A stretch of 64,000 nt of DNA from a virus: the IMG/VR virus record IMGVR_UViG_3300001199_000005, positions 32,001 through 96,000 of that record. The stretch is one strand, 5' to 3'. The notes under the pieces are model-generated. The model searched no databases and was not told where the DNA came from. It saw only the letters and a list, made by a program, of their open reading frames with translations. A program made the translations under genes and the position numbers. Below are positions 19,713 to 28,573 of the stretch, piece after piece. Position 1 is the first letter of the stretch. Each line of letters begins with the position of its first letter.

Positions 19713-19955
19713 CTACCCTCTACTATTATTTGATGGGGAGTTAATTGACTCATATCGTTGAATGTTTAGTCTATTTTCTTTACTTAATTCTCTAGCCAAG
19801 TTCTCCACATAACTATAAGTCTTACTATGTATTGTCGCTAACTTTCTAAAAGAGAACTTATACAGAAGTAAATCTCGTATTAGTGCTTCTCTTAGTATTC
19901 TACTATGATTCGTTTGAATAGGCATACAGACAGCATTCAATATCTGTAGGTTCAA
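19713..19955 (-). CDS. Hypothetical protein
   Basis: Short ORF; start uncertain. Confidence 0.35.
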   Translation of the reverse strand: MNLQILNAVCMPIQTNHSRILREALIRDLLLYKFSFRKLATIHSKTYSYVENLARELSKENRLNIQRYESINSPSNNSRG

Positions 19956-20325
19956 ATATATTACAAATTACTTTATAATATTGTTCCCAATCTCCCCCAG
20001 CTAATCCACAGCCTATAAATACAGGCATGGCGATAGACTTTGGCTTAAGCGCTACAATAGCGTACATACACTTCTTAAACCATTCTAATCTTGGTTCTTT
20101 ATCTGATTTTCCAGGATAATCCTGTGCATAGGCATTAATTATTCTACCATGAACTGATATTTCTCCAGGAATACGTTTGAAGTTGGAATCTATATAGGTA
20201 TTAGCTTCTGGAAAAACTTTGAATATTTGATTAGCAAGACCTGATGAATGATAACTTCTGCAATTACATTGATGTATGATGTAATCTTCTTTTGCTTTTA
20301 ATATATCACCGTTTATTTGTAACAT
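19903..20325 (-). CDS. Macro-domain ADP-ribose hydrolase (Poa1p/DarG-like)
   Basis: GDIL, IIHQCNC, GLANQI, IINAYAQ, IGCGLAGGDW. Confidence 0.85.
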   Translation of the reverse strand: MLQINGDILKAKEDYIIHQCNCRSYHSSGLANQIFKVFPEANTYIDSNFKRIPGEISVHGRIINAYAQDYPGKSDKEPRLEWFKKCMYAIVALKPKSIAMPVFIGCGLAGGDWEQYYKVICNIFEPTDIECCLYAYSNES

Positions 20326-20582
20326 GTTTTAAAGTTATAGTTAATTGTATCTCTTCCTACAATAGAATATCCTGTACTAATAATAGTATCAGCTTTATAC
20401 TCTAACCATAATGACAGGCTATGCCCTTTATCATGGAAATGAACTGAATTCTCATACTCCACATAAAACAAATCAGGTGCTGGTACTTTATAGACCAACA
20501 CCTGATTAGAAAATTCAACCTGTAATTGACAGCCATAACTTGGGCATATTACAGCCCAAGCTATAAGCAGTTCCTGTATCAT
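20313..20582 (-). CDS. Hypothetical protein
   Basis: 89-aa ORF coupled to neighbours. Confidence 0.5.
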   Translation of the reverse strand: MIQELLIAWAVICPSYGCQLQVEFSNQVLVYKVPAPDLFYVEYENSVHFHDKGHSLSLWLEYKADTIISTGYSIVGRDTINYNFKTCYK

Positions 20583-22381
20583 ATATTGAATTTTTCTACA
20601 ACAACTTTTACTTCGTCGTAGGCATTATTTCTATATGAAATATCTAACGCTGTATAAGGATTAAGAATATCCCAATCTTTTACATTCATAACTAGTTTGG
20701 TAATGTTCTCCACTTGACCAGGAACAAAAATAAGTCCAGGAACTTCTTTGAAATCTCTTACATCCCTGTTTTGTCCAACATCCATCAAGACAACAAGTTC
20801 TGGTCTGTAGCCAACTTCTACCTCCATAATCTTCATGGCTGCGTCAAATGAACGAACCACGTCACGCTCATTATTAAAGTTACCATCACTGATTAATAAC
20901 CAGATTGGATATGAACTAAGTAGTTCTCTAATACTATCCCTTTCAGCAAGACTGGCTGTTTTCATTATACCGTGTATAGCTTCGCCAATAGAAGCTAAAT
21001 TAGTACCATTCCCAGTTTGAATAGCTGATAAGAAACCACTTAACTGCTTATAGTTCTCCAACAAAGACTTTCTTTTATCTACCAACGGCTGTTTTGCTGC
21101 TTGCACAGCTTCACCAAATCTAGTAGCTTTCTTGTCAACGTAGGAAATATATCTAGCCTTATCAGAAAATGTCCAGAATCCTGAATCAGTTTCGGTCTTT
21201 AGCAGAACAATGGTAAGTAAAAACTTAGCAACATCAATAGGCTTAATGGAGCCACTAGAACCACCATACATAGAGCCACTATCATCAACAAACACCATTA
21301 CTTTATCAGTACCTAGCTTAACAGTCTTCAAATACTCTTCAGCAGCAAGAGCGTCCACAGTTTCAGTTCTTAAAGCTTCTAGTATTGTTTTTGTATTATA
21401 TACACCACGACTAACTTTAGCTTCTTTCTCTAATTGCTTTAAGTTGATTTGGTCGGTCAAAGATAACTCTTTGCCTTCGTTATCAGCTTTAAAATCTCGT
21501 AGTGTTTGATTGCTTTTCTCTTTCGATTCTTGCCATTCTTTGAAAATGTCAATCATAGGAGTATCTACAATCTTCCATAATTCAGGCTGTTTAACTATTC
21601 TATTATAGACTCGTTTTCTAGCACCACCAGTAAGGTGGTCAAGCCAAGTCAAGAAGTCTTGTTTAGTAAACTTAAGTATTTCCTTAGTAGAAAACATTAC
21701 TGACTCTAACTGCTTGTTATGTTCTTTCTTAAACTCTTCGGCACCGATATACCTAGTATTCTTAGGATAATATTTAATATCCCAATTCATTACTGAACTA
21801 AGCTCAATAGCGAACTTATGTTTTAGTCTTTGAGCGGTGACAGAGGCCTTTGACCTAGCTACTTTGATAGTCTTATCTTTTAACTTCCTCTTAGGCTTTG
21901 AATGAGGAAGTACTAACTGTTTAGCAGCTATTACTCTTCTCATAGGATTGCCCTTAACCCAAGCAGCGAATATTTTTGCCTGTGTAGCTAAATCATAGAT
22001 ATTGTTTCTATCTGTGGTTACATAGTATAGCTCTGATAATGAGGTGAACTCAATCAATACACGTACTATTGCTTCCAAGAATTCAGGTTTGTCTATAAAT
22101 TTAACAAATATCCAGTTAAATATTACTTGTCCTGACTTTCTATTAGCGTAACCACCAATAGTTCTTTGACTTTTCGCATAAATCCAATGCTGTCTATTTG
22201 TAATTGCAATACATTCTGCTAGTAATACAAAGAACAATTGTTTGTGCTCTTTAGTAGTACATTCATGCCAAGCATTAGTAATATCTGATTCTGAAATCAA
22301 ATCTTTACCTATTGCGTTTGATAATACCAGTAGTGCTGGTTTGTTATCAAAAGGGGTCTTTTTTTGAGTTAGTGTTACCAT
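20579..22381 (-). CDS. TROVE/Ro60-like (DUF2828-type) protein with C-terminal vWA domain
   Basis: 600 aa; basic helical N-terminus with RTIGGYANR; MIDAS VDDSGSM, TFS, GNGTN, LISDGNF; lies downstream of Y-RNA-like genes. Confidence 0.7.
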   Translation of the reverse strand: MVTLTQKKTPFDNKPALLVLSNAIGKDLISESDITNAWHECTTKEHKQLFFVLLAECIAITNRQHWIYAKSQRTIGGYANRKSGQVIFNWIFVKFIDKPEFLEAIVRVLIEFTSLSELYYVTTDRNNIYDLATQAKIFAAWVKGNPMRRVIAAKQLVLPHSKPKRKLKDKTIKVARSKASVTAQRLKHKFAIELSSVMNWDIKYYPKNTRYIGAEEFKKEHNKQLESVMFSTKEILKFTKQDFLTWLDHLTGGARKRVYNRIVKQPELWKIVDTPMIDIFKEWQESKEKSNQTLRDFKADNEGKELSLTDQINLKQLEKEAKVSRGVYNTKTILEALRTETVDALAAEEYLKTVKLGTDKVMVFVDDSGSMYGGSSGSIKPIDVAKFLLTIVLLKTETDSGFWTFSDKARYISYVDKKATRFGEAVQAAKQPLVDKRKSLLENYKQLSGFLSAIQTGNGTNLASIGEAIHGIMKTASLAERDSIRELLSSYPIWLLISDGNFNNERDVVRSFDAAMKIMEVEVGYRPELVVLMDVGQNRDVRDFKEVPGLIFVPGQVENITKLVMNVKDWDILNPYTALDISYRNNAYDEVKVVVEKFNI

Positions 22382-22920: not shown

Positions 22921-22960
22921 TAAAAAAAAATAAGCCTGCCGTTTTTACTTCAGCAGGCTA
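22921..22960 (-). terminator. Intrinsic terminator ending the small-RNA array
   Basis: AGCCTGC/GCAGGCT stem followed by a T9 run. Confidence 0.75.
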
Positions 22961-22968
22961 TGTAAGAA

Positions 22969-23061
22969 GACATACTATAAGGCGGATTCGAACCGCTTTC
23001 TTCTGATTTCAAGTCGGACGCTATACCAAAATAGCAGCTGTTAATGAGTTGTGAGTATGTC
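22969..23061 (-). ncRNA. Array unit H: closing stem + CACAAC + D arm, Ser(UGA)-type anticodon arm and T arm; no acceptor stem
   Basis: GACATACT/AGTATGTC; TCCGA-CTTGAAA-TCAGA; GCGG-TTCGAAT-CCGC. Confidence 0.75.
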
Positions 23062-23070
23062 AAAGGCTGA

Positions 23071-23125
23071 AGCTTACTATTATTTTAAACGGACTGTTAT
23101 TTTTTTGTATAGTTGTAAGTAAGCT
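23071..23125 (-). ncRNA. Array unit G: minimal unit with no clear tRNA part
   Basis: AGCTTACT/AGTAAGCT + TACAAC; A-rich insert with weak AAC-AGTCC-GTT hairpin. Confidence 0.65.
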
Positions 23126-23156
23126 GAGTATCTATAATTTTTTTTAGTCTAGGAAA

Positions 23157-23222
23157 AGAATTCTATATTGGTCAATTTAAAAGGTTGATGCTCTACCGAG
23201 CGGGTAAAGTTGTAAGAATTCT
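23157..23222 (-). ncRNA. Array unit F: D-like hairpin + Lys(UUU) anticodon arm
   Basis: AGAATTCT/AGAATTCT + TACAAC; GCTC-GGTA-GAGC; TCAAC-CTTTTAA-ATTGA. Confidence 0.75.
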
Positions 23223-23231
23223 AAAGAAGTA

Positions 23232-23293
23232 AGCATACCATATTGGTCAATTTAGCAGATTGGTGCCCGAAGGCTCTAAGTTGTAGGTATGCT
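23232..23293 (-). ncRNA. Array unit E: UUCG hairpin + Ser(GCU) anticodon arm
   Basis: AGCATACC/GGTATGCT + TACAAC; GCC-TTCG-GGC; CAAT-CTGCTAA-ATTG. Confidence 0.75.
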
Positions 23294-23324
23294 GAATATC
23301 TATTATTTGAAATAGTCTAAGTAA

Positions 23325-23380
23325 GACATGCTTTTTGTTTGGCAACATTATCAGTGTTTATTTTTAGTTGTAAGCATATC
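23325..23380 (-). ncRNA. Array unit D: isolated Ile(GAU) anticodon arm
   Basis: GATATGCT/AGCATGTC (one U-G pair) + TACAAC; AACA-CTGATAA-TGTT. Confidence 0.75.
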
Positions 23381-23394
23381 GAAAGTCTTGAATA

Positions 23395-23461
23395 AGAACA
23401 CTATAGTTGTCAAAAACCAAAATTTGATGCCCGAATAGGCGTTTTTAGTTGTGAGTGTTCT
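23395..23461 (-). ncRNA. Array unit C: small hairpin + probable Gln(UUG) anticodon arm
   Basis: AGAACACT/AGTGTTCT + CACAAC; GCC-TATTCG-GGC; TCAAA-TTTTGGTT-TTTGA (8-nt loop, register ambiguous). Confidence 0.7.
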
Positions 23462-23473
23462 GAATGTCTGAAA

Positions 23474-23569
23474 GAAGTACTATAATTTAAACACCCAAGG
23501 ATTTCTCCTGCAGAGTATTATTGGAATCGAACCAATTTTAACCATTTTGTTAATGATTGTAAGTACTTC
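23474..23569 (-). ncRNA. Array unit B: T arm followed by a capped acceptor-like stem
   Basis: GAAGTACT/AGTACTTC + TACAAT; ATTGG-TTCGATT-CCAAT; ATACTC...GGGTGT enclosing AGGA-GAAA-TCCT. Confidence 0.7.
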
Positions 23570-23583
23570 AATATGTCTTGAAA

Positions 23584-23697
23584 AGAATACTATTATCCTG
23601 CTTTCGCAGTCTATACAGGAGTTGAACCCGTTACTGATTGATTATAAGTCAATTGCTCTACCAGATGAGCTAATAATTAATGAGTTGTAAGTATTCT
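23584..23697 (-). ncRNA. Array unit A: D arm, Ile(UAU) anticodon arm, T arm and GAAA hairpin; no acceptor stem
   Basis: AGAATACT/AGTATTCT + TACAAC; GCTC-ATCTGGTA-GAGC; ATTGA-CTTATAA-TCAAT; ACGGG-TTCAACT-CCTGT; CTGC-GAAA-GCAG. Confidence 0.78.
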
Positions 23698-23703
23698 GTT
23701 TTG

Positions 23704-23808: not shown

Positions 23809-23852
23809 AAAAAGACCTGCCGTGTTTCAATATCCTTCGACACGGCAGGTTT
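23809..23852 (-). terminator. Intrinsic terminator after the YrlA-like RNA
   Basis: ACCTGCCGTGT/ACACGGCAGGT 11-bp stem + CTTTTT. Confidence 0.75.
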
Positions 23853-23854
23853 GT

Positions 23855-24000
23855 GCAGCGCATCTTTTAGAAAGTTTAATGCTGATGTATCCAAACGTTC
23901 TACCATTTAAACTACTCACCCTTGTTGTTATTGTTTTTGAGGGCAAGAGGGGGCTCGAACCCCTAATTTTTTGGAGGTCTGACTTTCTATATGCAACTGC
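23855..24000 (-). ncRNA. Circularly permuted tRNA-like RNA on a long bulged stem (YrlA-type Y RNA architecture)
   Basis: Order: long stem 5' strand, T arm AGGGG-TTCGAGC-CCCCT, loop-closed acceptor CTTGCCC/GGGTGAG, D arm GTTT-AAATGGTA-GAAC, long stem 3' strand. Confidence 0.8.
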
Positions 24001-24088
24001 TGATAAAGAATAAGCTAAGGCTATCGTTCAACACTAACTACGACAATTTAAACGTTAGGGTGAAGTTTAGACTGAAGCTTAAACGGTC

Positions 24089-24889
24089 TTAAATCTTACC
24101 TCGATGGAGATAAGAAAATATTTTGTTTGCTGTCATTTCTGATTCAACTGCTACAACATCATTAGCAACTTTTAATGCTTCTATAACTGCTGTTAATAAT
24201 CGTGAACGACGAGCAAGGATTTCTGCTCTTTGTGTATGTGTGTATTCTCCTGAAAAACGTTGATGTGAGTAATCACCAAGTTCCAAAGTATTATCTTTTG
24301 TAGCCACCATTGGAGTATACTTAGTGCTAGCATTCTCAATTTTACCAATATTAGGGTCTGGTAAAATGTATTGCTCTTTCACAGTAGTCTTGGTAGTACC
24401 AGTACGTAAAGGAGTTTCGTAGACTGCTCTTGAAGAATACATCTCATTAGTAGTTGGGGCCCAAATCTCATCATCATTACGTACTGGAATATTCTCGTAC
24501 AACTCCTTTAAAGTGCCATTTTCCAACAGTGATTTCAAACGAAGTAACTCTAATGATGAGAATTCACCAAACAATTCTCCATCTACCTCTAACTTTGCCC
24601 TTACTATGCCTTTAGCATTAGTTGCTTCTTGTGCAAATAAAGCATTAATATAATCAGCAGAAGTCCTTTCTAGGAAGTCTAACTTTTCTGCCACAGTTGT
24701 TACTACCAACTTGTTAGAACGCTCGCTTGGAACATCCATAGTTCCTGGTTTTGGCTCGTAACTCTTGCGTTCCCCCTTGAAAGCACCTTGAGAACTTTTA
24801 AAGAACTTTACATAATCTGTAATCATTCCTTTAAATATTGTCGAAAGGTGGTCTGTTTTGGCTAACAGAGTGTTTAACTTTAAGTTCAT
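24089..24889 (-). CDS. Conserved-looking hypothetical protein directly upstream of the YrlA-like RNA
   Basis: 266-aa ORF with its own promoter motif. Confidence 0.7.
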   Translation of the reverse strand: MNLKLNTLLAKTDHLSTIFKGMITDYVKFFKSSQGAFKGERKSYEPKPGTMDVPSERSNKLVVTTVAEKLDFLERTSADYINALFAQEATNAKGIVRAKLEVDGELFGEFSSLELLRLKSLLENGTLKELYENIPVRNDDEIWAPTTNEMYSSRAVYETPLRTGTTKTTVKEQYILPDPNIGKIENASTKYTPMVATKDNTLELGDYSHQRFSGEYTHTQRAEILARRSRLLTAVIEALKVANDVVAVESEMTANKIFSYLHRGKI

Positions 24890-24939
24890 TTTTTGAAGTT
24901 TATAATTCTTATACTTATGTTTAGAACCTAACGATAGGA

Positions 24940-24969
24940 CAAAGTTAGTAATTATTGCTAATATACCAA
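24940..24969 (-). promoter_or_regulatory. Bacteroidota-type promoter
   Basis: TTG-N19-TAACTTTG about 50 bp upstream of the 24889 start. Confidence 0.6.
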
Positions 24970-27784: not shown

Positions 27785-28573
27785 TTAAGAGTTGAGAAAA
27801 TTATTTAATGATAAAACATGATTCTTCAGGTTATCAATCTTATTGTAGTTATTCAGGTATGCTTTGTTAAGCACTTCTTCTAACAAAATAATTGCGAACC
27901 TTATCTCAGTAAAGTGTTTTAAAATATACTTTACATTTCTGGATTGCAGGATAATATTATTTTTCCTCCAATGATGGTAGATGTCTTCTACCCCTTTGAT
28001 TGAATAGTGATTTAACACATCTTCAATTTTGTAATCTACGCCTTGATATTCTATCAAGTAAATATAAAAGTCTGGTCTAAGAACACTAAGCATCTTTCTT
28101 TCATGTGCGCCTGTAATTCTTATGTCGTCAAGAACAATTACTGTTCTTCCCCTTAATAAATTGGTATCAATGTATAGTTCATCATTCTTAATAAGCTCGG
28201 TTCTTTCATCTAAATCCATACTACAATAAGGCTCGTTATGCCTAATTATTCTATGTACTTTAGTTAGATGTATCCTTTGCTTATAGAAAGTAGCTAATCT
28301 TTGAACGATAAATTCAGATAACACAAAGATTGGATTTGCTAGATTATCAGAACTGCCAGCCACTATAACAATTTCTTCATCTGTGGTTATAATACTTATA
28401 ACATAATTAGCAAATTCTTCTGCGAGCTTTTTAGTAGCTGTTATTACTCCATACTTATATTGACTATAAAGAGTGAGAATTAATTCATCTACTTCTCTTA
28501 TGTCTTTAAAGTTATGAAGGGCTAAAGTGCTGGCATGTTCTTGTATGTGATTTCTGTAATCTTCTCTCCCCAT
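27785..28573 (-). CDS. Phosphoribosyltransferase-like protein
   Basis: PRPP-binding-type motif VIVLDDIRITGAHE; YSQYKYG. Confidence 0.72.
   Translation of the reverse strand: MGREDYRNHIQEHASTLALHNFKDIREVDELILTLYSQYKYGVITATKKLAEEFANYVISIITTDEEIVIVAGSSDNLANPIFVLSEFIVQRLATFYKQRIHLTKVHRIIRHNEPYCSMDLDERTELIKNDELYIDTNLLRGRTVIVLDDIRITGAHERKMLSVLRPDFYIYLIEYQGVDYKIEDVLNHYSIKGVEDIYHHWRKNNIILQSRNVKYILKHFTEIRFAIILLEEVLNKAYLNNYNKIDNLKNHVLSLNNFLNS

What the first reader, a model, noticed from the sequence alone, without database searches (positions are those of the whole stretch)
23855..24000. Circularly permuted tRNA mimic with YrlA-type Y RNA architecture
SEEN: the T arm comes before the acceptor stem and D arm, and the acceptor stem is closed by an A/C-rich loop. 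The anticodon stem position (TCCAAA/TTTGGA) extends into a long interrupted helix (TAGAAAGT/ACTTTCTA; GCAG-T-TGCAT/ATGCG-CTGC) formed by the RNA ends, followed by its own terminator. KNOWN: this permutation defines bacterial YrlA RNAs. INFERENCE: it lacks the array's YACAAY motif, so its partner may be the adjacent 266-aa protein rather than the vWA protein.
Basis: partly seen in the sequence, partly recalled or inferred. Interest (0 to 1): 0.75.

Follow-up and report, generated by a model that had tools for sequence, protein, structure and literature searches.

The report
Back-to-front tRNA mimic RNA after DUF7873
A phage of Bacteroidota encodes a real, conserved small RNA folded like a tRNA with its two halves swapped, which always follows one gene of unknown function (DUF7873) rather than the Ro60-like gene nearby, so it may work without Ro60, the usual partner of such RNAs.

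Summary
On the minus strand, 24000..23855 folds as T arm, loop-closed acceptor stem, D arm, a short anticodon-like stem and a long bulged helix made by the RNA ends.

- **Conservation:** a covariance model built from one relative finds the element full length after the DUF7873 gene in 26 related phage contigs, and three more were found by pattern. That is 29 of 29 loci outside the Lak-like group.
- **Covariation:** 38 of 40 base pairs show compensatory changes.
- **Rfam:** YrlA is the only non-tRNA family that matches. It matches full length but below threshold (21 bits here, 29 to 42 in relatives, cut-off 69).
- **Extent:** the conserved unit is larger than flagged, about 280 nt. It includes a conserved leader and a 3' hairpin with a conserved AGGAUA loop.
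- **Ro60-like gene:** the 600-aa vWA protein 1.5 kb downstream has a Ro60 fold. Its relatives travel with a different RNA module, a stem followed by CYYACAA, which this RNA lacks.
- **Ro60-like genes in relatives:** they were detected in only 9 of 20 contigs that carry this RNA.

This scan has already reported the DUF7873 plus tRNA-mimic pair on other DNA. I rate it a new variant of the YrlA/Y RNA kind.

The parts
23855..24000 (-). Core RNA: a circularly permuted tRNA mimic. Order: outer helix, anticodon-like stem, variable-loop-like spacer, T arm, loop-closed acceptor stem, D arm, return strands.
   Evidence: Sequence. Rfam YrlA full-length alignment, 21.1 bits. Model R1 49.8 bits, E 1e-9. 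Covariation in all six helices. Fold z-score -2.9.
23948..23964 (-). T arm (AGGGG UUCGAGC CCCCU).
   Evidence: 100% of cells paired across 26 sequences, and 4 of 5 pairs show double changes. The T-loop GUUCRA is near invariant.
23915..23947 (-). Acceptor-like stem of 7 bp closed by a 19-nt A/C-rich loop. The 3'-type strand is followed by a conserved UC.
   Evidence: 98.9% of cells paired, and 6 of 7 pairs show double changes. The loop ranges from 17 to 245 nt in relatives.
23897..23912 (-). D arm (GUUU AAAUGGUA GAAC), preceded by UA at the U8/A9 position.
   Evidence: The GG of the D loop is conserved.
23982..24000 (-). 5' strand of the terminal helix (GCAG-U-UGCAU-A-UAGAAAGU).
   Evidence: It pairs with 23855-23875. 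Helices 1 and 2 are 88 to 90% paired with double changes in all 18 pairs. Single-sequence folds of relatives agree.
23855..23875 (-). 3' strand of the terminal helix, with a 4-nt A-rich bulge (ACUUUCUA-AAAG-AUGCG-CUGC).
   Evidence: A bulge of mostly 3 nt, A-rich, sits on this strand in relatives (AAU, AAA, AUA, ACA).
23809..23850 (-). An 11-bp GC-rich hairpin with the conserved loop GUCGAAGGAUAUUGA, then a U tract. It acts as a terminator here.
   Evidence: A hairpin with a covarying stem and an AGGAUA-type loop follows the RNA in all 26 aligned relatives, many without a U tract. The loop 12-mer occurs only once in the window.
24003..24088 (-). Conserved leader between the DUF7873 stop and the RNA. 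It has two AGCYUNAGY-type repeats (about 24070-24080 and 24014-24022) around a TAnnnTTG box (24029-24037) that resembles the Bacteroidota -7 promoter element.
   Evidence: Invariant columns in the 16-sequence alignment. RNAalifold predicts no consensus pairing there. The leader stays with the RNA where the RNA is unlinked from DUF7873. The promoter reading is inference.
24089..24889 (-). DUF7873 gene (266 aa), the syntenic neighbour of the RNA.
   Evidence: Pfam PF25283, E 2.6e-36. 497 homologues, 59 to 69% identical among the 120 listed. A perfect TAACTTTG -7 box lies upstream at about 24938-24945.
20579..22381 (-). Context: a divergent Ro60-like protein (600 aa, helical ring plus a vWA domain with a DDSGS MIDAS motif).
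   Evidence: No Pfam hit. phrog_850 'RNA-binding protein', E 7e-10. AF2 model pLDDT 79. The top 12 Foldseek hits are all Ro60/TROVE. VIA Z 13.7 with 416 residues aligned.
22960..23700 (-). Context: an array of cassettes, each a 7-bp stem followed by CYYACAA. This is the RNA module that travels with Ro60-like genes.
   Evidence: Seven units were found by a strict rule in the window. The same unit occurs at 14.6 per 100 kb on the gene strand of 59 Ro60-like loci, against 0.18 in controls.

Best explanation
This is a genuine non-coding RNA of a Bacteroidota phage. The core is about 150 nt, and the unit is about 280 nt with its conserved leader and 3' hairpin. It folds as a tRNA whose halves are swapped, the YrlA topology. 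It has a tRNA-like elbow (D and T loops), an acceptor stem closed by a loop, no anticodon loop, and a long bulged helix made by its two ends.

It belongs to the RNA family that follows DUF7873 genes. It does not belong to the stem-CYYACAA cassette family that accompanies the Ro60-like gene in the same locus.

Most likely (inferred, not shown) it is the RNA subunit of a Y-RNA-like particle. The tRNA-shaped head would engage a protein that recognises tRNA. The bulged terminal helix and the AGGAUA hairpin would hold a specific protein partner, for which the co-inherited DUF7873 protein is the leading candidate. Such a particle would act on tRNA-directed processes during infection, as a scaffold or a decoy, independently of the phage's Ro60-like protein.
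For: **Structure (shown).**
- A structure-blind MAFFT/RNAalifold run recovers the T arm, acceptor stem and D arm. 14 of 16 pairs show double changes, and none is broken in the T and acceptor stems.
- On the 26-sequence structural alignment, 93.6% of cells pair against 58.7% in shuffles. 38 of 40 pairs have compensatory changes. The covariation score is 0.80, against 0.20 shuffled and about 0.1 when the partners are slid.
- The model is specific: 0 hits in 0.9 Mb of control viral DNA.
- Rfam YrlA is the only non-tRNA family that matches: 21 bits here, and up to 42 bits (E 5e-6) in relatives.

**Linkage to DUF7873 (shown).**
- The RNA lies 120 to 400 nt after the gene in 29 of 29 loci outside the Lak-like group, and in L217.
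- Of 59 Ro60-like loci, this RNA type appears only where DUF7873 is also present.

**Independence from Ro60-like genes (shown).**
- They were detected in 9 of 20 contigs that carry the RNA.
- Four complete genomes had none. Three of these were searched with all three profiles and the fourth with phrog_850 only.
- The Ro60-linked module is a different one, stem plus CYYACAA. This RNA lacks it.

**An autonomous unit.** In a Lak-like megaphage contig the RNA keeps its leader and hairpin about 180 kb away from the DUF7873 gene.
Against: - There is no transcript, processing or binding datum for any member.
- DUF7873 has no recognisable RNA-binding fold. Foldseek found nothing, and the best VIA Z was 7.7, to a protein of unknown function. 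It is near neutral, pI about 7.
- Lak-like homologues of DUF7873 lack the RNA next to the gene, and a complete 554-kb record gave no hit at all. A 32%-identical homologue (L187) also lacks it.
- Synteny inside tRNA gene clusters could reflect shared transcription rather than a physical partnership.
- A later check recorded in this scan on another genome put low odds (22/100) on the binding claim.
- The covariation counts for the outer helices come from an alignment fitted to the model.
Confidence: 0.45

Rival explanations
1. It is a true Y RNA that binds Ro60, either the phage's own Ro60-like protein or the host's Rsr. The binding site has moved from the terminal helix into the 3' hairpin.
For: - A Ro60-fold gene lies 1.5 kb downstream on the same strand.
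- Ro60-like genes lie within about 2 to 16 kb of the RNA in 9 of 20 contigs, far more than expected for phages in general.
- The hairpin top reads GUCGAAGG...UUGA. This matches the Rsr motif GNCGAAN0-1G of Chen et al. 2014 (PMC4201824), and it resembles the vertebrate GGUCCGA/UUGAC site, which I cite from memory.
- CGAAGG is present in 12 of the 26 hairpins.
- The control genome Bacteroides thetaiotaomicron has a TROVE protein, so hosts could supply Rsr to phages that lack one.
Against: - CGAA is not conserved across the family. Only AGGAUA is.
- The link between CGAA and the presence of a Ro60-like gene is weak: 6/9 against 2/9, Fisher p 0.15, and the samples are phylogenetically non-independent.
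- The phage Ro60-like genes are accompanied by a different motif, stem plus CYYACAA.
- Four complete genomes with the RNA showed no Ro60-like gene.
- The motif is absent from the 5' strand, where YrlA has it.
Confidence: 0.25
2. It is a cis-acting element with no dedicated protein partner. A tRNA-shaped structure in the DUF7873/tRNA-cluster transcript would recruit RNase P, RNase Z or tRNA-modifying enzymes. These would define transcript ends, or stabilise the mRNA and the neighbouring tRNA precursors.
For: - The element lies between a protein gene and tRNA genes in most loci. In many relatives the 3' hairpin is followed directly by a tRNA with no U tract.
- In Chen et al. 2014, YrlA RNAs are substrates of enzymes that recognise tRNAs.
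Against: - A processing signal would not need a conserved, covarying 18-bp bulged terminal helix, a conserved leader and a conserved hairpin loop.
- The unit persists with its leader and hairpin when it is unlinked from DUF7873.
- Here it ends at its own terminator, before the next RNA genes.
Confidence: 0.15
3. It is a decayed remnant of two tandem tRNA genes, or a permuted tRNA gene that matures into a working tRNA.
For: The T arm, acceptor stem and D arm are all tRNA-like, and the element sits in a region rich in tRNA genes.
Against: - The two acceptor strands pair with each other and covary. That excludes two unrelated tRNA halves.
- The element is conserved in 29 loci of diverged phages whose DUF7873 proteins are 37 to 69% identical to the window's.
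- There is no anticodon loop. The anticodon-like stem opens into variable junctions and the terminal helix.
- I found no conserved bulge-helix-bulge site.
Confidence: 0.03

Closest known systems
YrlA (Y RNA-like A; Rfam RF02553), the Rsr/Ro60-bound Y RNA of bacteria and mycobacteriophages (Chen et al. 2014, PMC4201824; Wang et al. 2018, bioRxiv 10.1101/312249)
   Same: - Same domain order: T arm, loop-closed acceptor-like stem, D arm.
- The tRNA-like head sits on a helix formed by the 5' and 3' ends.
- D- and T-loop elbow nucleotides are conserved.
- It is found in phages, here with a Ro60-fold gene in the same locus.
- The YrlA model aligns full length.
   Different: - It scores 21 to 42 bits against a cut-off of 69.
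- There is no GNCGAAN0-1G motif in the 5' strand.
- The terminal helix instead carries a conserved, mostly 3-nt A-rich bulge on its 3' strand.
- It has an extra conserved 3' hairpin and a conserved leader.
- Its synteny is with DUF7873, not with the Ro60 gene.
- It is present in complete phage genomes with no detectable Ro60.
Yrl1/Yrl2 of Thermus phage phiLo with phage Ro60 (NAR 2025, PMC12135203; PDB 9L5Y, 9KOP)
   Same: Phage-encoded Y-like RNAs lie next to a phage Ro60. The window's 600-aa protein matches the phiLo Ro60 structures at Z 11.6 to 13.7.
   Different: The phiLo RNAs were chosen for a CGAA motif in a stem-bulge-stem and lie directly upstream of Ro60. The text I searched of that paper does not use the term 'tRNA-like' (0 occurrences). 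The RNA here is tRNA-shaped, and it is separated from the Ro60-like gene by a terminator, a cassette array and two small ORFs.
Stem-CYYACAA cassettes and permuted tRNA mimics beside phage Ro60-like genes (this window's array at 22960-23700; loci L157-L215). I found no paper on them.
   Same: Some of these are also permuted tRNA mimics with T arm, closed acceptor stem and D arm, on the same strand and in the same kind of phage.
   Different: Their terminal stem is followed by CYYACAA, and they cluster within about 2 kb of Ro60-like genes. The RNA studied here has no such motif. It has the bulged helix, the leader and the AGGAUA hairpin, and it follows DUF7873.
DUF7873-linked tRNA-mimic RNAs reported earlier by this scan on other genomes. 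I found no paper on them.
   Same: The same gene family (PF25283) is followed by a structured RNA with permuted tRNA-like heads, usually with no Ro60 gene in view.
   Different: Most earlier cases are described as two-headed RNAs of 360 to 500 nt. This one has a single head, with about 280 nt conserved. Here it also sits in one locus with a Ro60-like gene and its own cassette RNAs, so the two systems can be compared side by side.

Membership tests
YrlA (Rfam RF02553) | Domain order: T arm, loop-closed acceptor-like stem, D arm (permuted relative to tRNA). | tested here: met
   The Rfam alignment puts all three arms in register with high posterior probability. Covariation is shown.
YrlA (Rfam RF02553) | The tRNA-like module sits on a long stem formed by the RNA's 5' and 3' ends. 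| tested here: met
   Helices 1 and 2 (18 bp) are 88 to 90% paired, and all pairs show double changes. Minimum-energy folds agree.
YrlA (Rfam RF02553) | Score at or above Rfam's gathering cut-off (69 bits). | tested here: not met
   21.1 bits in the window. Five relatives score 29 to 42.3 bits. No hit at the gathering score in 19 loci.
YrlA (Rfam RF02553) | The putative Rsr-binding motif GNCGAAN0-1G near the 5' end (Chen et al. 2014). | tested here: not met
   The motif is absent from the 5' strand of the window RNA and from the family consensus. A GUCGAAGG occurs instead in the loop region of the 3' hairpin, and CGAAGG is present in only 12 of 26 hairpins.
YrlA (Rfam RF02553) | Encoded adjacent to a Ro60/Rsr (TROVE plus vWA) gene. 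| tested here: inconclusive
   In the window a Ro60-fold gene lies 1.5 kb downstream. Across the family, Ro60-like genes were detected in 9 of 20 contigs, and never directly adjacent. Sequence searches can miss divergent Ro60 proteins.
YrlA (Rfam RF02553) | Bound by Rsr/Ro60, carries tRNA-type modifications, and is a substrate of enzymes that recognise tRNAs. | not testable with these tools
   This needs immunoprecipitation, EMSA and modification mapping.
Canonical tRNA (RF00005) | Cloverleaf order (acceptor, D, anticodon, T) with a 7-nt anticodon loop. | tested here: not met
   ARAGORN and the Rfam tRNA model report nothing at 23855-24000. There is no anticodon loop in the fold.
Circularly permuted tRNA genes (Cyanidioschyzon type; from my own knowledge) | Both halves rebuild a complete tRNA, including the anticodon loop, after circularisation at a bulge-helix-bulge site. 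| tested here: not met
   The anticodon-like stem of 5 to 6 bp opens into junctions of variable length and the terminal helix. There is no conserved 7-nt loop.
DUF7873-linked tRNA-mimic RNA (working family of this scan) | Lies directly downstream of a PF25283 gene on the same strand. | tested here: met
   The RNA core starts 88 nt after the stop codon in the window. 29 of 29 loci outside the Lak-like group have it.
Ro60/TROVE (for the 600-aa neighbour) | A helical-repeat ring followed by a vWA domain with a MIDAS motif. | tested here: met
   The top 12 Foldseek hits are all Ro60/TROVE chains over about 600 alignment columns. VIA Z is 13.7 (416 aligned, rmsd 5.8) and 13.6 to D. radiodurans Rsr. 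The sequence has a DDSGS motif.
Ro60/TROVE (for the 600-aa neighbour) | A match to Pfam TROVE (PF05731). | tested here: not met
   No Pfam family matched the protein. No TROVE match was found in the whole 153-kb record.

The most novel reading that the evidence does not exclude
The phage carries two parallel Y-RNA-like systems in one locus. One is a Ro60-like protein served by stem-CYYACAA cassette RNAs. The other is a Ro60-independent particle made of DUF7873 and this permuted tRNA mimic. The second would be a new class of RNA-protein machine, widespread in Bacteroidota phages. It would use a tRNA-shaped head to capture or decoy tRNA-directed host factors, such as tRNA-cleaving defence nucleases or tRNA repair and modification enzymes.
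Probability: 0.3. Interest if true: 0.8.

Novelty: new variant of a known kind. Interest (0 to 1): 0.6.

Why it matters
Y RNAs are defined by their partnership with Ro60. A conserved RNA with the YrlA topology that instead follows another protein gene, and that persists in complete phage genomes where no Ro60-like gene was detected, would show that the permuted tRNA scaffold is reused by other proteins.

This locus is a useful test case. The same phage also encodes a Ro60-fold protein with its own, differently marked RNAs, so both proteins can be tested against both RNA types in one experiment. It would also assign a first function to DUF7873, a family with hundreds of members and no annotation. 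It may also bear on how large phages manage or protect tRNA pools.

Tried and rejected
- **Searches with single proteins.** The search for related loci with the single DUF7873 or Ro60-like protein found nothing. Alignments were needed.
- **Cultured phages.** Megablast of the locus against phage records gave no match. DUF7873 by tblastn matched only Lak megaphages, at 44% identity, so no close cultured relative is available.
- **Pattern scan.** None encodes DUF7873, and the 100 searched with model R1 gave no hit. It served only as a negative control.
- **Second model.** All searches therefore used the single-sequence model, which misses members with large insertions (L008, L027, L031).
- **DUF7873 function.**
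  - Foldseek against the PDB gave nothing at E 0.001 or better.
  - The VIA wide search gave a best Z of 7.7, to a protein of unknown function.
  - PHROGs and NCBIfam gave nothing.
  - The Atlas showed only DUF7873 clusters and a weak DUF6847 likeness.
- **Leader.** RNAalifold found no consensus pairs in the conserved leader. I read its repeats as direct repeats, not a helix.
- **K-turn.** I rejected a K-turn reading of the bulge, because no tandem G-A follows it.
- **Literature.** No paper mentions DUF7873.
- **Complex prediction.** I did not run complex prediction, because it scores protein-protein contacts and I claim none.

Full report
**Setting.** The window is part of a 152,878-base IMG/VR virus record, estimated 85% complete. 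All genes in this region run on the minus strand. It is rich in tRNA genes: ARAGORN finds 9 and Rfam adds more. A perfect Bacteroidota -7 promoter box (TAACTTTG) precedes the 266-aa gene. The only phage records in the GenBank-derived collection that encode that protein are Prevotella Lak megaphages. The host is therefore probably a member of the Bacteroidota.

**The observation.**
- a terminal helix made by the two ends (GCAG-U-UGCAU-A-UAGAAAGU with ACUUUCUA-AAAG-AUGCG-CUGC);
- a 6-bp anticodon-like stem (UCCAAA/UUUGGA);
- a 5-nt spacer in the place of the variable loop;
- a T arm with a UUCGAGC loop;
- a 7-bp acceptor stem closed by a 19-nt A/C-rich loop;
- UA in the place of U8/A9;
- a D arm with the GG of the D loop.

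There is no anticodon loop, and neither ARAGORN nor the Rfam tRNA model calls a tRNA here. The minimum-energy fold gives the same helices. Its z-score is -2.9, or -3.7 when the leader and hairpin are included. Rfam's YrlA model is the only non-tRNA family that aligns to the element. The alignment is full length at 21.1 bits, well under the cut-off of 69.

**Conservation.** The protein upstream (24889..24089) is a DUF7873 family member (PF25283, E 2.6e-36). It has 497 homologues, and the 120 listed are 59 to 69% identical. An alignment of these retrieved 36 loci from viral contigs.
- In almost all of them the stop codon is followed by the same series of elements.
- A pattern scan found a T arm directly followed by a perfectly paired 7-bp acceptor hairpin and a D arm in 27 of 37 sequences. 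The acceptor loops range from 17 to 245 nt.
- A structure-blind MAFFT alignment of 16 members, folded by RNAalifold, recovered the T arm, acceptor stem and D arm. 14 of 16 pairs show changes on both sides, and none is broken in the T and acceptor stems.
- I then built a covariance model from a single relative (L011) with a hand-written structure that includes the terminal helices. It finds full-length matches just after the DUF7873 gene in 26 loci. It also finds the window element (23852-24002, minus strand, 49.8 bits, E 1e-9).
- The same model finds nothing in 0.9 Mb of unrelated viral DNA.
- On the resulting 26-sequence alignment, 93.6% of cells form pairs, against 58.7% in shuffles. 38 of 40 pairs show compensatory changes. 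The covariation score is 0.80, against 0.20 shuffled and about 0.1 when partners are slid by 1 to 3 columns.

The counts for the outer helices lean on an alignment fitted to the model. However, single-sequence folds of six members give the same terminal helix on their own, with a 3- to 4-nt bulge on its 3' strand.

Counting the three members with large insertions (L008, L027, L031), 29 of 29 loci outside the Lak-like group with intact downstream sequence carry the RNA. So do L199 and L217.

**The unit is larger than flagged.** Two more parts are conserved.
1. *A leader of about 90 nt between the stop codon and the terminal helix.* It has two copies of an AGCYUNAGY-type motif around an invariant TAnnnTTG box (24029-24037). 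The box differs by one position from the Bacteroidota -7 element. RNAalifold predicts no pairing in the leader. I read it as a promoter region with flanking repeats, or as an unstructured binding platform. This is inference.
2. *The 'terminator'.* All 26 aligned relatives have a strong hairpin 3 to 10 nt after the terminal helix. Its stem covaries and its loop is conserved: AGGAUA throughout, and CGAAGGAUAUUGA in about half. In many relatives no U tract follows and a tRNA gene starts at once. In the window the loop 12-mer occurs only here.

In a Lak-like megaphage contig the RNA, with its leader and a hairpin, lies about 180 kb from the DUF7873 gene. The unit is therefore autonomous and not simply the 3' untranslated region of that gene.

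**Which protein does it go with?** The 600-aa protein at 22381..20579 has no Pfam match, and no TROVE match exists anywhere in the record. Its AlphaFold model (pLDDT 79) nevertheless matches Ro60 structures.
- The top 12 Foldseek hits are Xenopus and human Ro60, D. radiodurans Rsr and the Ro60 of Thermus phage phiLo.
- VIA gives Z 13.7 (416 residues aligned, rmsd 5.8) and 13.6. vWA-only chains follow at about Z 10.

So the locus does contain a divergent Ro60-like gene, which fits a Y RNA reading. The comparative data, however, separate this RNA from that gene.
- *First,* Ro60-like genes were sought with the family profile, Pfam TROVE and phrog_850. They were detected in 9 of 20 contigs that carry DUF7873 and the RNA. 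Among genomes at least 94% complete the count is five with and four without. Three of the four were searched with all three profiles, and the fourth with phrog_850 only. Sequence searches can miss divergent Ro60 proteins, so 'absent' is provisional.
- *Second,* of 59 viral loci built around relatives of the Ro60-like protein, only five encode DUF7873 within 9 kb. Many still have permuted tRNA mimics beside the Ro60-like gene, but these carry a terminal stem followed by CUUACAA.
- *Third,* a strict rule (7 Watson-Crick pairs, the 5' arm followed by CYYACAA) finds 152 such units on the gene strand of these loci, or 14.6 per 100 kb, in 48 of 59 loci. They cluster just upstream and downstream of the gene. 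The rate is 0.38 on the opposite strand and 0.18 in control viral DNA. The same rule picks out seven of the eight cassettes of the window's array.

The RNA studied here lacks it and travels with DUF7873.

**What keeps Ro60 in play.** The top of the 3' hairpin reads GUCGAAGG...UUGA.
- This fits the motif GNCGAAN0-1G that Chen et al. proposed for Rsr recognition in YrlA (PMC4201824).
- It also resembles the GGUCCGA/UUGAC site of vertebrate Y RNAs, which I cite from memory.
- The phiLo study likewise used a CGAA motif to pick its Y-like RNAs (PMC12135203).
- But CGAA is present in only 12 of the 26 hairpins, and its association with the presence of a Ro60-like gene is weak (6 of 9 against 2 of 9, p 0.15).

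I keep this as the main rival. The host's own Rsr is a possible partner, since Bacteroides thetaiotaomicron has a TROVE protein.

**DUF7873 itself.** The model is confident (pLDDT 86). It shows long helical hairpins and beta hairpins.
- No fold match is convincing. The nearest is a DIP1984/DUF6847-like protein of unknown function.
- The protein is near neutral, with a pI of about 7.

Nothing identifies it as RNA-binding. Its candidacy rests on synteny and on its unusually high conservation.

**Comparison with known families.** In architecture this is a YrlA-type tRNA mimic, and the YrlA model recognises relatives at E down to 5e-6. As a family member it fails two tested criteria, the Rfam cut-off and the 5' Rsr motif. 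A third criterion, adjacency to Ro60, is inconclusive. It also has features YrlA lacks: the A-rich bulge in the terminal helix, the leader and the AGGAUA hairpin. I therefore class it as a new variant of a known kind, not as a YrlA member. No Rfam family covers it and no paper mentions DUF7873.

**Earlier work of this scan.** After forming my reading I looked up earlier notes. The scan has reported the DUF7873 plus tRNA-mimic pair many times on other genomes. One later check there put low odds (22/100) on the claim that the protein binds the RNA. My own tests confirm the synteny independently. They add the side-by-side contrast with the Ro60-like/CYYACAA system in this locus.

**Verdict.** The structure and its conservation are secure (about 0.9). 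The mechanism, a Ro60-independent Y-like particle with DUF7873 as partner, is inferred from synteny, and I put it at 0.45. A Ro60 or Rsr partnership through the hairpin stands at 0.25, a purely cis-acting role at 0.15, and decay or a true permuted tRNA at 0.03.

Noticed in passing
window 22960-23700 (-); loci L157-L215: Cassettes made of a 7-bp stem followed by CYYACAA are about 80-fold enriched on the gene strand around relatives of the Ro60-like protein. They occur in 48 of 59 loci and cluster within about 2 kb of the gene. Some of them are complete permuted tRNA mimics. This looks like the RNA-recognition signature of this divergent phage Ro60 family.
   Followed up: partly
window 20579-22381 (-): The 600-aa protein has no Pfam match but a Ro60 fold (Z 13.7). 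Relatives in other phages are caught variously by Pfam TROVE, by phrog_850 or only by the family's own profile. Phage Ro60 proteins are therefore probably under-counted by sequence searches.
   Followed up: yes
window 19903-20325 (-): A 140-aa macro-domain protein lies just downstream of the Ro60-like gene. It matches phrog_335 'phosphatase' (E 9e-27), with weak matches to Pfam Macro and to the NCBIfam DarG antitoxin. It could be an ADP-ribose or RNA-end processing enzyme.
   Followed up: no
window 27785-28573 (-): A 262-aa protein matches the ComF-like phosphoribosyltransferase family (PF15610, E 4e-21). It lies in the block of small genes upstream of DUF7873.
   Followed up: no
L004:1119-1201 (+): A type-P3 twister ribozyme match just above Rfam's cut-off (41.2 bits against 39.9), about 2.3 kb upstream of the DUF7873 gene of a related phage contig.
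   Followed up: no
L008, L027, L031, L005, L010, L014, L017, L022 (acceptor loop of the RNA): The loop that closes the acceptor stem ranges from 17 to 245 nt. Several relatives carry structured insertions of 60 to 245 nt at exactly this point. The closing loop is thus a tolerated insertion site.
   Followed up: no
L030:3398-3473 and L036:222-562 (+): Sub-threshold tmRNA matches (about 29 bits, cut-off 47) in the tRNA clusters upstream of DUF7873 in two related phages.
   Followed up: no
L015, L016, L019-L021, L026; Prevotella Lak phages (MK250015-29): Lak-like megaphages encode DUF7873 at 44% identity without the RNA next to it. One 416-kb contig (G019) has the RNA, with its leader and a hairpin, about 180 kb away beside a tRNA gene. 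A complete 554-kb record gave no hit.
   Followed up: partly
L185, L166, L199 (second hit): A third type of permuted tRNA mimic lies beside Ro60-like genes. It shares UUGUAAYCCGUGUGUCG before the T arm and GUAACUUUUU after the D arm. It has neither CYYACAA nor the bulged helix.
   Followed up: no
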